A DNA stretch of 64,000 bases from Steroidobacteraceae bacterium (GCA_035503515.1 DATJTJ010000130.1:25547-89546), one strand, 5' to 3'. Positions 22,633-25,667 are shown, numbered from the stretch's first letter. Translations and numbers: made by a program. Notes: generated by a model from the sequence alone, not told the origin.

Positions 22633-24066
22633 TCAGCCGGTCCTGAGGACTTTGCCGGGGTTCATGATGCCGTTGGGGTCGAAGGCGCGCTTGATGGCGC
22701 GCATCAGATCCAGCTCGACCGGTGGGGCGTAGCGCTCCAGCTCCCCGACCTTCAGCTGCCCGATGCCGTGCTCGGCACTGAAGCTGCCACCGTACTCGCG
22801 CACCAGGTCATGGATGACCCGTTGCACATCGGCGGACCGCGCCAGGAACTGTTCCGGCGTGTACAGCGGATCCTGGTTCAGATTGAAGTGCAGGTTGCCG
22901 TCGCCGACATGACCGTAGGCGATGAGCCGCCCCTCCGGCACGTGTGCCGAAAGCCAGCCGGCCGCCTGGGTCACGAACTGCGGCAGGGCCGCGACCGGCA
23001 CGGAGATGTCATGCTTGATGCTGGCGCCATCCAGGCGCTGCGCCCGCGGGATGTTCTCGCGCAGGAACCAGAAGCTTTGCGCCTCGCGCCCGCTTTGCGC
23101 GATGACGGCATCGCGTACCAGACCGGCTTCGTGTGCGCCGGCGAGGACTTCCTCGAGAACGGCATCCAGCGCTTCGCCGGCGCGCGGCGAGGTCAGCTCG
23201 CACAGCACGTACCAGTCGTACTGCCCCGGTAGCGGATCCACGGCGGGCGTGACGTGCCGCACCGTCAGGTCCACCGCCAGCCGCGGAATCAGCTCAAACG
23301 AGCTGACCCGATCCCCGCTGTGGGTGCGCAGCCGGCTGAGCAGCTCCACCGCCGCTCGGACGTCCGCCACTGCCACGAATGCCGTGGCGCTACTGCGCAC
23401 CGCGGGAAACAGCTTCAGGGTGGCCGCCGTGATGATGCCGAGCGTGCCTTCGGCCCCGAGGAACAGGGATTTCACGTCGTAGCCGGTATTGTCCTTGCGC
23501 AGGCTCGTCAGGCTGTCGAGCATCCGCCCGTCCGGCAAGACCACCTCCAGCCCCAGCACCAGCTCGCGCATCATGCCGTAGCGCAGGACATTGGTGCCGC
23601 CGGCGTTCGTCGACAGATTGCCGCCGATCTGGCAGCTGCCCTCGGAACCCAGGCTCAGGGGAAAGAAACGCTCGGCCTGCGCCGCGGCCCGCTGCACCTC
23701 GGCCAGCACGCAGCCGGCTTCGCAGGTCAGGGAGTAGTTCAGGGGATCGACGCTGCGCACCCTGTTCAGCCGCGCCAGCGAGACGATCACCTGGTGTCCC
23801 GACGGATCGGGCGTGGCCCCGCCGCAATACGAGGTATTGCCCCCCTGGGGTACGACGCCGATGCGGTGGGCGTTGCAGAAGGCGAGGGTGGCGGCGACCT
23901 GCTCGACCGAGCGCGGCAGGATCAGTGCGGCGGCGTTGCCGTGGTACAGGCCGCGATGGTCGACGAGCCGGGGGCCGAGATCGCCGGGCGCGGTGCGAAC
24001 GCAGTCGGCGCCGAGAAGGAGGGTAAGTTGCGCGACCGCCTGGCCGCTAGCAGCCGGCTGCCTCAC
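22633..24066 (-). CDS. FAD-linked oxidase (GlcD / D-2-hydroxyacid dehydrogenase family)
   Basis: 477 aa. FAD-binding PCMH region VVPQGGNTSYCGGA. C-terminal AEHGIGQLK...DPNGIMNPGK. Confidence 0.85.
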   Translation of the reverse strand: MRQPAASGQAVAQLTLLLGADCVRTAPGDLGPRLVDHRGLYHGNAAALILPRSVEQVAATLAFCNAHRIGVVPQGGNTSYCGGATPDPSGHQVIVSLARLNRVRSVDPLNYSLTCEAGCVLAEVQRAAAQAERFFPLSLGSEGSCQIGGNLSTNAGGTNVLRYGMMRELVLGLEVVLPDGRMLDSLTSLRKDNTGYDVKSLFLGAEGTLGIITAATLKLFPAVRSSATAFVAVADVRAAVELLSRLRTHSGDRVSSFELIPRLAVDLTVRHVTPAVDPLPGQYDWYVLCELTSPRAGEALDAVLEEVLAGAHEAGLVRDAVIAQSGREAQSFWFLRENIPRAQRLDGASIKHDISVPVAALPQFVTQAAGWLSAHVPEGRLIAYGHVGDGNLHFNLNQDPLYTPEQFLARSADVQRVIHDLVREYGGSFSAEHGIGQLKVGELERYAPPVELDLMRAIKRAFDPNGIMNPGKVLRTG

Positions 24067-24383
24067 TCGTCCTCGTCTTCATCCTCATCCCAATCGTCAT
24101 CCTCGTCTTCGTCCTCGTCCCAGTCGTCGTCCTCGTCCTCTTCGTCTTCCTCGTCCTCGTCCTCATCCTCGTCTTCGTCGGACTCGGACCAGCCTTCCGG
24201 TGCCGTGGTCTTCTCCAGGTCCATTTCATGCCAGGCTTCGATGTCGATCTCCTCGATGTCCCCATCGACATACTCGATCTCGACGAGTTCGGAGTCTTCG
24301 TCCACCGACAGCACGCGGAAGGACTCCTCTTCTTCCACGTTCTCGTACCACTGGCCGGCCGCCGGTTCGTAATCTCTGCTCAC
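24063..24383 (-). CDS. Hyperacidic small protein (DUF6763-like?), function unknown
   Basis: 106 aa, of which 60 are Asp/Glu by my count. N-terminal GQWYEN...FRVLSVDEDSELVEIEYVDGDIEEIDIEAWHEM fold-like part. The tail is DE repeats punctuated by Trp. 4-nt overlap with the FAD oxidase gene. Confidence 0.65.
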   Translation of the reverse strand: MSRDYEPAAGQWYENVEEEESFRVLSVDEDSELVEIEYVDGDIEEIDIEAWHEMDLEKTTAPEGWSESDEDEDEDEDEEDEEDEDDDWDEDEDEDDDWDEDEDEDE

Positions 24384-24506
24384 CGTTTGGTCCTCGAGGG
24401 CTCAACTGTTGAAGGCGGGCGCCAGTTTAAGGGGGGATTGTTGCAGGTGGCAACGATCACCGGCACCGATTCGCCGGCCCGCCGCCGATCCCGTATAGTT
24501 TTTACC

Positions 24507-25667
24507 ATGAGCACCGCCGTTCAGACTCTCGCGTCGCCATTGCTTTCGGCACGGCGCATCGTCGTCAAGGTCGGGTCCGCCCTGCTGGTGCAGCAGGACA
24601 CCGGCCAGCTGCACCGCGAGTGGCTGACCGGACTGATCCAGGATCTGATGCGCCTGCGCGCACGCGGCCAGCAGGTCATCCTGGTGTCCTCGGGGGCCAT
24701 TGCACTGGGCCGACGTGAGCTGGGGCTTGCCCCGGGGCCGCTGCGGCTGGATGAGAGCCAGGCGGCGGCCGCCGTGGGCCAGATCCGACTGGCCCATGCC
24801 TACAAGGAACTGCTGGGCGAGCATGGGGTGACGGTGGCACAGGTGCTGTTGACGCTGGAGGACAGCGAGCAGCGACGCCGGTACCTCAATGCCCGGGCCA
24901 CTCTGGAGTCCCTGCTGGCGTTGGGGGCGCTGCCGGTGATCAATGAAAACGACACCGTCGCCACCGCCGAGATCCGCTATGGCGACAACGACCGGCTCGG
25001 CGCCCGCGTGGCGCAGATGGCCGGCGCCGACTGCCTGGTGCTGCTCTCGGATGTCGAGGGCCTCTTCAGTGCCGATCCGAACCGCCATTCCGACGCGCGC
25101 TTCATCGAGAGGGTCACGGCGCTGACGCCGGAAATCGAGGCCATGGCCGGCCGGTCCGCCTCCGCCGTGGGCTCCGGTGGCATGACGACGAAGCTCCTGG
25201 CCGCCCGGATCGCCGTCGCCGCGGGGTGTCATATGTGCATTGCGGCGGGCCACCATGCCCACCCCGTCCGTCGGCTCGAGGAGGGGGCGCGCTGTACCTG
25301 GTTCGTCCCCAGCGATACGCCGGTGGCGGCACGCAAGCAGTGGATCGCGGGAACGCTGCGCCCGGCCGGAGCCCTGGGCGTCGATGCCGGCGCGCTCAAG
25401 GCGCTCAGTGCCGGCAAGAGCCTGCTGCCCGCCGGCGTGGTGCGGCTGACGGGACGCTTCGACCGAGGGGATACCGTCAGCATCCTGGCCCCCGACGGCA
25501 CCGAGGTGGCGCGCGGCATCAGTGCCTACTCGGACAGCGACGTGACCCGCATCATGGGTCGCAGATCGGCCGAAATCGAAGGCATTCTGGGCTACCGCAG
25601 CGGCGATGCGCTGGTGCACCGGGACGATCTGGTGATGCTGCGCAAGGAGATGGCATGTCTGACCTGA
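24507..25667 (+). CDS. proB: Glutamate 5-kinase
   Basis: Start MSTAVQT, residue 94 of track ORF 24228..25667. [11 protein letters not shown] and [10 protein letters not shown]-terminal PUA region. Confidence 0.92.

What the first reader, a model, noticed from the sequence alone, without database searches (positions are those of the whole stretch)
24063..24383. Hyperacidic 106-aa protein translationally coupled to a GlcD-like FAD oxidase
Seen: 60 of 106 residues are Asp/Glu, against 3 Arg/Lys, by my count. The first roughly 65 aa look like a small folded domain (GQWYEN...FRVLSVDEDSELVEIEYVDGDIEEIDIEAWHEM...PEGW). The last 38 aa are pure D/E with two embedded Trp (DDDWDEDEDEDDDWDEDEDEDE, DNA about 24066-24179). 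Its stop overlaps the oxidase start by 4 nt.
Inference: conserved acidic proteins of this type (I recall a DUF6763-like family) have no known function. A polyanionic tail could act as a nucleic-acid mimic, a cation buffer or a partner for a basic protein. Coupling to a dehydrogenase is unexplained.
Basis: partly seen in the sequence, partly recalled or inferred. Interest (0 to 1): 0.5.

Follow-up and report, generated by a model that had tools for sequence, protein, structure and literature searches.

The report
Hyperacidic DUF6763 protein, oxidase link incidental
This is a real, strongly conserved small protein of the catalogued but unstudied DUF6763 family, made of a tiny beta-barrel plus a disordered tail that is almost pure aspartate and glutamate; its tight coupling to the neighbouring oxidase gene is a local accident of gene order, not a conserved partnership.

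Summary
ORF 24063-24383(-) encodes 106 aa with 60 D/E and 3 K/R. The last 38 residues are D/E plus two Trp. The stop overlaps the only possible start of the downstream FAD oxidase (GTGA).

It is a DUF6763 (PF20549) protein (71.5 bits, cut-off 27). AlphaFold gives a five-strand SH3/Tudor-like barrel (residues 10-60, pLDDT about 90) and a disordered tail. dN/dS of the N-domain is about 0.1.

The family occurs in 98 of 301 gammaproteobacterial genomes sampled evenly over families. Typical members are 27-36% D/E, with conserved PEDW..DDLGY and DW..PL motifs in a disordered C-half. The form with 50% D/E or more groups as one clade of the window's own family (NCBI names for relatives: Steroidobacteraceae). 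It keeps a Trp at the second motif.

The oxidase is D-2-hydroxyglutarate-dehydrogenase-like. It lies directly downstream only here and in one relative. Elsewhere VIT1, htpX or a desaturase gene comes first. Outside this family neither the oxidase nor proB was found within 1.5 kb.

Function is unknown. My best inference is a polyanionic decoy or chaperone for basic, nucleic-acid-binding surfaces, anchored by Trp.

Other first-reader notes in this scan flagged what look like orthologues in other genomes.

The parts
24063..24383 (-). DUF6763 family gene (106 aa plus stop), hyperacidic variant
   Evidence: ORF and translation. PF20549 at 71.5 bits against a cut-off of 27. N-domain dN/dS about 0.1 across 22 orthologues.
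24186..24383 (-). N-terminal domain, residues 1-66. Five-strand SH3/Tudor-like small beta-barrel (residues 12-59), followed by the PEGW motif with W65
   Evidence: AlphaFold2: pLDDT about 90 for residues 10-60, with strands 12-15, 20-28, 33-38, 43-47 and 56-59 and a helix at 48-53. The same fold is predicted for a typical family member. P7, W12, Y13, W51 and W65 are invariant.
24066..24179 (-). Polyacidic tail, residues 69-106: 36 D/E plus W88 and W98. Encoded by an imperfect GAN hexamer repeat
   Evidence: Composition. TRF period 6, 19 copies, 76% matches. pLDDT below 50, so predicted disordered. W88 aligns with the family's second conserved DW motif.
24063..24066 (-). GTGA overlap: the stop of the DUF6763 gene and the GTG start of the oxidase gene
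   Evidence: Sequence. There is no alternative oxidase start.
24391..24395 (-). Shine-Dalgarno-like GAGGA, 7 nt upstream of the GTG start
   Evidence: Read directly from the sequence.
24424..24453 (-). Sigma-70-like promoter candidate (TTGCCA, 18 nt, TAAACT) in the 123-nt divergent region shared with proB
   Evidence: Consensus scan: 9 of 12 matches, 1 site found against 0.4 expected in shuffles. Weak evidence only.
22633..24066 (-). Downstream 477-aa FAD-linked oxidase, D-2-hydroxyglutarate-dehydrogenase-like
   Evidence: PF01565 and PF02913. Best solved relatives are 3pm9 (1e-137) and human D2HGDH 6lpn (4e-91). It scores below the GlcD equivalog cut-offs.
24507..25667 (+). proB (glutamate 5-kinase), divergently transcribed. 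It is the most conserved neighbour of the hyperacidic orthologues
   Evidence: AA_kinase and PUA domains. ATG at 24507. proB lies upstream and divergent in 13 of 13 loci and in 7 of 9 same-family genomes.

Best explanation
Shown:
- The ORF is a genuine cytoplasmic protein of the DUF6763 family.
- It has a small, acidic SH3/Tudor-like beta-barrel (residues ~10-60) and an invariant P-E-G/D-W motif.
- Its intrinsically disordered tail is, in this bacterial family only, a 34-60-residue poly-Asp/Glu stretch that keeps one or two embedded Trp (sometimes Leu or Phe).
- The 4-nt overlap with the D2HGDH-like oxidase gene follows from local gene order. In most relatives VIT1 and/or htpX or desaturase genes lie between the two genes, and they are absent here.

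Inferred:
- The family works through its conserved but disordered C-terminal motifs, which dock on a partner protein.
- The hyperacidic version acts as a polyanionic decoy or chaperone for a positively charged, nucleic-acid-binding surface. Candidates are a nucleoid-associated, ribosomal or H1-like Lys-rich protein.
- Charge would supply affinity and the Trp residues would act as hydrophobic anchors. Acidic histone-chaperone domains and bacterial DNA-mimic proteins work this way.

The stated confidence is for this whole statement, including the inferred mechanism. The descriptive part alone I would put at about 0.9.
For: Real gene and family:
- PF20549 match.
- More than 4,600 homologues with E <= 0.001, and 1,242 clusters at 50% identity.
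- dN/dS about 0.1.

Fold: two AlphaFold models agree, with barrel pLDDT about 90 and tail below 50.

Conserved motifs in a disordered region:
- In 115 typical members D64, W65 and G67 are 100% conserved, D70 97%, D76 98% and G78 94%.
- The second motif has W 80%, P 86% and L 85%.
- This pattern is typical of linear binding motifs.

The tail is selected, not drift:
- All 120 close clusters keep a tail of 63-92% D/E (median 84%) with 1-2 Trp, and 76 of 120 end in Tyr.
- It persists in 9 of 9 same-family genomes down to 54% N-domain identity.
- The hyperacidic rows group together in a tree (SH-aLRT 86), with a 40% D/E intermediate as sister.

The oxidase link is incidental.

Precedents:
- The APLF acidic domain binds histones through DNA-mimicking electrostatics plus aromatic anchors Y462, F468, Y476 and W485 (bioRxiv 10.1101/2021.12.24.474097).
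- Neisseria DMP12 is an acidic DNA mimic that binds HU (PMC3643605, abstract).
- The acidic C-terminal domain of Hfq, the subject of PMC5606850 (title), competes with RNA for the Sm core by my own recollection of that paper.

Possible partners: Lys-rich, H1-like tails exist in this genome.
Against: - No partner is identified. No conserved neighbour was found across the family.
- No sound domain fusion was found.
- There is no solved homologue.
- Fold matches are generic and weak: E >= 0.02 against PDB, and one marginal hit (E = 3.9e-4) to an uncharacterised phage protein in BFVD.
- Typical family members are only 27-36% D/E, so polyanion mimicry cannot be the ancestral mechanism in its extreme form.
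- The window protein ends in DEDE, not in the aromatic tip seen in 63% of orthologues.
Confidence: 0.35

Rival explanations
1. Cation buffer or metallochaperone. The poly-carboxylate tail binds divalent or trivalent metals (Fe, Mn, Ca, Mg) and works with the VIT1-family Fe/Mn exporter that follows it in most relatives.
For: In 10 of the 23 orthologous loci examined the next gene is a VIT1-family transporter. In three loci (L005, L015, L016) the stop overlaps a candidate start of that gene by 4 nt. Sixty carboxylates give a large low-affinity cation capacity.
Against: The window genome has no close orthologue of that VIT1 gene, yet it keeps the hyperacidic protein. Other relatives have htpX or a desaturase gene next instead. 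Distant family members show no VIT1 link in the contexts examined. Conserved Trp positions and a conserved folded domain are not needed for a cation sink. There are no His or Cys ligands.
Confidence: 0.15
2. Stress-protective polyanion. A highly charged, disordered 'shield' keeps other proteins soluble or serves as a macromolecular counter-ion during heat or osmotic stress. This would resemble Hero-type proteins or the acidic E. coli protein MsyB, which is used as a solubility tag.
For: It lies divergent to proBA (proline synthesis) in nearly all orthologous loci, and next to the heat-shock protease gene htpX in many. Some distant members sit near Usp, HPF/CSD or Hsp70/DnaJ genes. MsyB's use as an acidic solubility-enhancing fusion tag appears in the papers listed.
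Against: The neighbourhood signal is weak and inconsistent. A non-specific shield would not need invariant P7, W12, Y13, W51 and W65 or precisely conserved tail motifs. There are no expression data.
Confidence: 0.15
3. Dedicated accessory subunit or regulator of the D2HGDH-like oxidase, which is the reading implied by the translational coupling.
For: The 4-nt GTGA overlap and a single promoter candidate suggest co-expression in this genome. The oxidase lies within about 4 kb on the same strand in 9 of the 13 fetched loci, 4 of which end before it could be reached.
Against: Direct adjacency occurs only in the window and L004. One to three unrelated genes intervene elsewhere. The oxidase is absent within 1.5 kb of all 30 distant family loci. 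The two other DUF6763 paralogues in this genome sit in unrelated contexts: NUDIX, and MarC with an MFS transporter.
Confidence: 0.05

Closest known systems
Pfam PF20549 (DUF6763), named 'DUF6763 family protein' in NCBI annotation
   Same: It scores well above the family threshold. It has all invariant residues (P7, W12, Y13, W51, W65), the same predicted barrel, the same length class and an acidic, disordered C-half.
   Different: Typical members have the conserved motifs PPEDW(T/S)GPxDDxERDDLGYTE and DWxxPL, and are 27-36% D/E. Here that region is replaced by a 38-residue D/E run, giving 57% D/E overall, with only the Trp retained.
Acidic disordered domains with aromatic anchors, for example the acidic domain of the histone chaperone APLF
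   Same: A disordered poly-acidic stretch punctuated by conserved Trp/Tyr/Phe. In APLF the acidic residues mimic DNA phosphate contacts and the aromatics plug hydrophobic pockets.
   Different: A eukaryotic protein with no sequence relationship. The target here is unknown, and this protein adds a folded barrel. This is an analogy of mechanism only.
Bacterial and phage DNA-mimic proteins (Neisseria DMP12 and DMP19, phage Ocr, SPO1 Gp44)
   Same: Small, very acidic proteins that occupy DNA-binding sites of basic proteins such as HU (abstracts).
   Different: Those mimics mostly display charge on a rigid folded surface. Here the charge lies in a disordered tail. There is no sequence or fold match, and no PHROG or PADLOC family hit below E = 0.02.
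SH3-like, Tudor and KOW small beta-barrels (SMN and PHF1 Tudor, Spt5/NusG KOW, DtxR-family SH3-like domain)
   Same: A five-strand barrel of similar size. These are the best Foldseek matches, with TM-scores normalised to the target of 0.5-0.65.
   Different: All hits have E >= 0.02 and 10-20% identity. An aromatic cage was not tested. The barrel itself is strongly acidic, so nucleic-acid binding is unlikely.
SSB and T7 gp2.5-type acidic C-terminal tips (my own recollection)
   Same: An acidic tail that ends in an aromatic residue in 76 of 120 orthologue clusters, with endings such as DEY and DQY.
   Different: The window protein itself ends in DEDE. There is no OB fold and no DDDIPF-like tip.

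Membership tests
DUF6763 (PF20549) | Score above Pfam's gathering threshold over most of the model | tested here: met
   71.5 bits against a cut-off of 27. Residues 4-93 align to model positions 3-92 of 97. The genome search gives 72.6 bits.
DUF6763 (PF20549) | Invariant residues of the N-domain and the PE(D/G)W motif | tested here: met
   P7, W12, Y13, W51 and W65 are invariant in 101- and 127-sequence alignments and present in the window protein.
DUF6763 (PF20549) | Conserved C-terminal motifs of typical members (GPxDDxERDDLGY and DWxxPL) | tested here: not met
   They are replaced by the poly-D/E run. Only W88 aligns with the second-motif Trp. This defines a sub-clade and is not a criterion of the Pfam model.
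DNA-mimic proteins | Shown competition with DNA for a DNA-binding protein, with a charge pattern matching the phosphate backbone | not testable with these tools
   Only composition (net charge about -57) and predicted disorder are available. No partner is known.
Tudor / SH3-like small beta-barrel fold | Five-strand barrel topology | tested here: inconclusive
   The predicted topology fits. Foldseek matches are weak (E >= 0.02) and there is no experimental structure.
SSB-type acidic tip | C-terminal acidic-aromatic tip | tested here: not met
   The window protein ends in DEDE. 76 of 120 orthologue clusters end in Tyr.
D-2-hydroxyglutarate dehydrogenase (the neighbouring gene) | FAD_binding_4 and FAD-oxidase_C domains, and closest to characterised D2HGDH rather than GlcD | tested here: met
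   Pfam domains. Human D2HGDH 4e-91, against glycolate oxidase 3e-45. It scores below the GlcD equivalog cut-offs. Substrate was not tested.
Oxidase accessory protein (conserved operon partner) | Adjacency conserved across the family | tested here: not met
   Adjacent only in the window and L004. Other genes intervene in relatives, and the oxidase is absent in 30 distant loci.

The most novel reading that the evidence does not exclude
DUF6763 proteins are a previously unrecognised bacterial class of acidic chaperones or decoys for basic nucleic-acid-binding proteins. They would be a functional analogue of eukaryotic acidic histone chaperones with aromatic anchors. They occur in about a third of gammaproteobacterial families, and the Steroidobacteraceae clade would be the extreme, polyanionic form.
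Probability: 0.2. Interest if true: 0.6.

Novelty: new member of a known kind. Interest (0 to 1): 0.3.

Why it matters
By itself this is a catalogued protein of unknown function, so the immediate value is modest.

- It removes a false lead, the oxidase partnership.
- It gives the family a first anatomy: a small beta-barrel plus conserved linear motifs in a disordered acidic tail.
- It shows that an extreme polyanionic tail has been kept by selection across a whole bacterial family.

If the decoy or chaperone idea is right, it would add a widespread bacterial counterpart to eukaryotic acidic chaperones. The hyperacidic clade would then be a convenient handle for finding the partner.

Tried and rejected
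- Literature: 0 papers for 'DUF6763', 'PF20549' or 'hyperacidic protein'. The MsyB papers found mostly concern its use as a fusion tag or mention it in passing.
- NCBIfam: no model hits the protein.
- PHROGs: one insignificant hit (E = 0.02). PADLOC: nothing. So there is no phage or defence signal.
- Solved structures by profile: none.
- Foldseek against PDB and BFVD: generic small-barrel matches only.
- Conserved neighbour across the family: all-against-all clustering of flanking ORFs in 30 distant loci found no neighbour shared by more than 4 loci. Three annotated contexts were all different: PilZ/dodecin, HPF and Hsp70/DnaJ, ParC/acetyl-CoA synthetase.
- Domain fusions: I inspected 8 of the best 150 hits, the seven longest plus one 196-aa hit with two matched stretches. 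They are frameshifted or chimeric gene calls, tandem duplications, or one probable read-through into a DksA/TraR gene.
- Upstream oxidase start that would make the ORF an artefact: excluded.
- The 372-aa plus-strand ORF 23254-24372 with poly-Ser is the antisense shadow of the GAN tract.

Full report
**1. The observation**

The minus-strand ORF 24063-24383 starts with GTG and encodes 106 residues.
- I count 33 Glu and 27 Asp (60 acidic), 2 Arg and 1 Lys. The calculated net charge is about -57.
- Residues 69-106 (DNA 24066-24179) are 36 D/E plus W88 and W98. Tandem Repeats Finder reports exactly that span as 19 copies of an imperfect 6-nt unit.
- A GAGGA Shine-Dalgarno lies 7 nt upstream of the GTG.
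- A sigma-70-like promoter candidate lies at 24453-24424 on the same strand.
- The TGA stop overlaps the GTG of the next gene as GTGA.
- That GTG is the only workable start of the oxidase. An in-frame stop lies four codons upstream. The next in-frame start is 92 codons downstream, inside the FAD-binding domain that begins at residue 46.
- This is the only place in the 4.66-Mb assembly, in all six frames, where a 35-residue window reaches 60% D/E.

**2. It is a real gene of a catalogued family**

- Pfam assigns it to PF20549 (DUF6763) at 71.5 bits against a cut-off of 27. No NCBIfam model hits it.
- A search of 5.8 billion proteins gave more than 4,600 homologues with E <= 0.001. The closest are named 'DUF6763 family protein' from Steroidobacteraceae metagenome-assembled genomes.
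- A profile of the N-domain found 1,242 clusters at 50% identity.
- In 22 orthologous loci the start (M/V-S-R-D-Y-E-P) is conserved. The N-domain has a median dN/dS of about 0.1, with synonymous sites near saturation.
- The N-domain is 70-90% identical between loci in which proB is 68-80% and the oxidase 61-67% identical.

**3. Anatomy**

- AlphaFold2 with a 101-sequence alignment gives a five-strand barrel with one short helix: strands 12-15, 20-28, 33-38, 43-47 and 56-59, helix 48-53. pLDDT is about 90 for residues 10-60, and below 50 from residue 71 on, apart from the two Trp positions.
- A typical family member (P0122) gives the same barrel and a disordered C-half.
- Foldseek finds only generic SH3-like, Tudor and KOW barrels (best E = 0.02) and nothing informative among viral models.
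- A profile search finds no solved homologue.
- P7, W12, Y13, W51 and W65 are invariant across the family.

**4. The wider family**

- DUF6763 was found in 98 of 301 gammaproteobacterial genomes sampled evenly over families.
- It was found in only 1 other genome of 400 in a phylum-level sample, and in none of 14 control genomes.
- Typical members are 95-115 aa and 27-36% D/E.
- Their predicted-disordered C-half is strikingly conserved. In PPEDW(T/S)GPxDDxERDDLGYTE, D64, W65 and G67 are 100% conserved, D76 98% and G78 94%. In the second motif DWxxPL, W is 80%, P 86% and L 85%.
- High conservation in a region predicted to be disordered is what one expects of linear motifs that fold on a partner.
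- No neighbour is conserved. In 30 loci no flanking gene recurred in more than 4, and three annotated contexts were unrelated to one another.
- The 8 long or double-stretch hits I inspected among the best 150 are frameshifted or chimeric gene calls, tandem duplications, and one probable read-through into a DksA/TraR gene. There is no sound fusion clue.
- No phage or defence family matches.

**5. The hyperacidic clade**

- This genome has three DUF6763 genes. The other two (L001, L002) have ordinary tails and lie in unrelated contexts: NUDIX, and MarC with an MFS transporter.
- The form with about 50% D/E or more occurs in all 9 sampled genomes of the window's own family, with N-domain identity down to 54%. 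It also occurs in all 13 loci fetched by similarity.
- Among 120 close protein clusters the tail is 34-60 residues and 63-92% D/E (median 84%). It always has one or two Trp, the second sometimes replaced by Leu or another residue. It ends in Tyr in 76 of 120.
- W88 of the window protein aligns with the second-motif Trp of typical members.
- On a tree of the N-domain (65 columns, so weakly resolved) the hyperacidic rows group together (SH-aLRT 86). A 40% D/E intermediate (L063) from another family of the same order is sister to them (SH-aLRT 90). The ordinary copies of the same order, including this genome's L001, fall elsewhere.
- So the tail is an old elaboration, kept by selection, that arose in one paralogue lineage. 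It is not a strain-level repeat expansion.
- Frameshifted versions in public data (P0291, P0341, P0354) show that the GAN tract is error-prone in assemblies.

**6. The oxidase link**

The downstream gene has FAD_binding_4 and FAD-oxidase_C domains. It is closest to 3pm9 (1e-137) and human D-2-hydroxyglutarate dehydrogenase (4e-91), and far from glycolate oxidase. It scores below the GlcD equivalog cut-offs.

Across the 23 orthologous loci including the window:

| Gene immediately downstream | Loci |
|---|---|
| VIT1-family transporter | 10 |
| HtpX-like M48 protease | 5 |
| Fatty-acid desaturase | 1 |
| Oxidase | 2 (window and L004) |
| Not identified, or contig end | 5 |

- The oxidase usually follows 2-3.5 kb further on, as part of a syntenic block that ends with an alpha/beta-hydrolase gene.
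- In L005, L015 and L016 the DUF6763 stop overlaps a candidate start of the VIT1 gene by 4 nt. Other loci have gaps of 30-125 nt.
- The window genome (90% complete) has no close orthologue of those VIT1 and htpX genes.
- The GTGA coupling to the oxidase is therefore most simply the result of losing the intervening genes in this sub-lineage.
- Divergent proB is the steadiest neighbour (13 of 13 and 7 of 9 loci). It too is absent from the distant family loci.

**7. How it probably works (inference)**

Three features argue for binding to a protein partner rather than a purely bulk physico-chemical role:
- a conserved folded domain;
- invariant aromatic residues;
- conserved motifs in a disordered tail.

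In the hyperacidic clade the motif region has become a polyanion that keeps its Trp. The best-understood analogues are acidic disordered domains that mimic nucleic-acid phosphate contacts and use aromatic anchors.
- In the APLF acidic domain, Y462, F468, Y476 and W485 anchor an acidic stretch on histones, and the acidic residues contact residues that otherwise bind DNA.
- Small acidic bacterial DNA mimics such as DMP12 bind HU (abstract).
- Hfq's acidic C-terminal domain, the subject of the eLife 2017 paper found, competes with RNA for the Sm core by my own recollection of that paper.

I therefore favour a decoy or chaperone for a basic nucleic-acid-binding surface (about 35%). Lys-rich, H1-like tails exist in this genome, for example a tandem glyoxalase-like (VOC-type, by eye) protein with a ~110-aa Lys/Ala tail on contig C57. 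Nothing links them to this gene.

Rivals:
- A cation buffer linked to the VIT1 exporter (15%). This is weakened because the exporter is missing here and in many relatives, and because the Trp and the fold would be unnecessary.
- A stress-protective polyanion (15%). The proBA, htpX and Usp neighbourhoods give only weak support.
- An oxidase accessory protein (5%), contradicted by synteny.

The remaining probability covers functions I cannot name.

**8. Novelty and limits**

- The family is catalogued in Pfam and in NCBI names but is unstudied: no paper in the searchable library mentions it.
- This protein is a member of it. The hyperacidic clade and the motif anatomy are, as far as I can find, undescribed.
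- Other first-reader notes in this scan (unchecked) flagged what appear to be orthologues in other genomes: 'between htpX and proBA' and 'overlapping the start of a VIT-family transporter'. Both descriptions match what I measured in relatives.
- No partner, structure or phenotype is available.

Noticed in passing
G000 contig C57:16210-17367 (+), outside the window: A tandem glyoxalase-like (VOC-type, judged by eye, not scanned) protein carries a ~110-aa histone-H1-like Lys/Ala-rich C-terminal tail. Other Lys-rich small ORFs lie on C145, C20 and C7. They are possible basic counterparts of the hyperacidic protein, but nothing links them to it.
   Followed up: no
P0385 (269 aa): A DUF6763 protein runs on, through a Pro/Arg-rich linker that looks like translated intergenic DNA, into a DksA/TraR-type C4 zinc-finger protein. 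This is probably a read-through of adjacent genes. A dksA gene also lies three genes upstream of the DUF6763 gene in L051.
   Followed up: no
P0243 (185 aa) and P0350 (196 aa): Proteins with two tandem DUF6763 barrels, which may hint that the domain works as a dimer.
   Followed up: no
P0291, P0341, P0354, P0251: Public gene calls of hyperacidic orthologues that shift frame inside the GAN tract into Arg/Thr-rich nonsense, or are chimeric. The tract is error-prone in assemblies, or it truly slips.
   Followed up: partly
L063 (G728:C53:38707-41904): An intermediate form (129 aa, 40% D/E) keeps the PEDWTG motif and adds a long acidic end with several DW motifs. It is sister to the hyperacidic clade on the tree.
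   Followed up: partly
window 23254-24372 (+): A 372-aa ORF with a long poly-Ser run is the antisense shadow of the GAN tract and of the GC-rich oxidase gene. It is not a gene.
   Followed up: yes
L008:5504-6750 (+): About 1.3 kb of extra DNA, with ORFs I did not identify, lies between the VIT1 and htpX genes in one relative. This shows that the block downstream of the DUF6763 gene is a hotspot of rearrangement.
   Followed up: no
L005:4306-5343 (+) and orthologues: The VIT1-family protein of the relatives has a ~125-aa N-terminal extension before the VIT1 domain. By my recollection this resembles the ferritin-like domain of MbfA-type iron exporters. Only the VIT1 domain was confirmed.
   Followed up: partly
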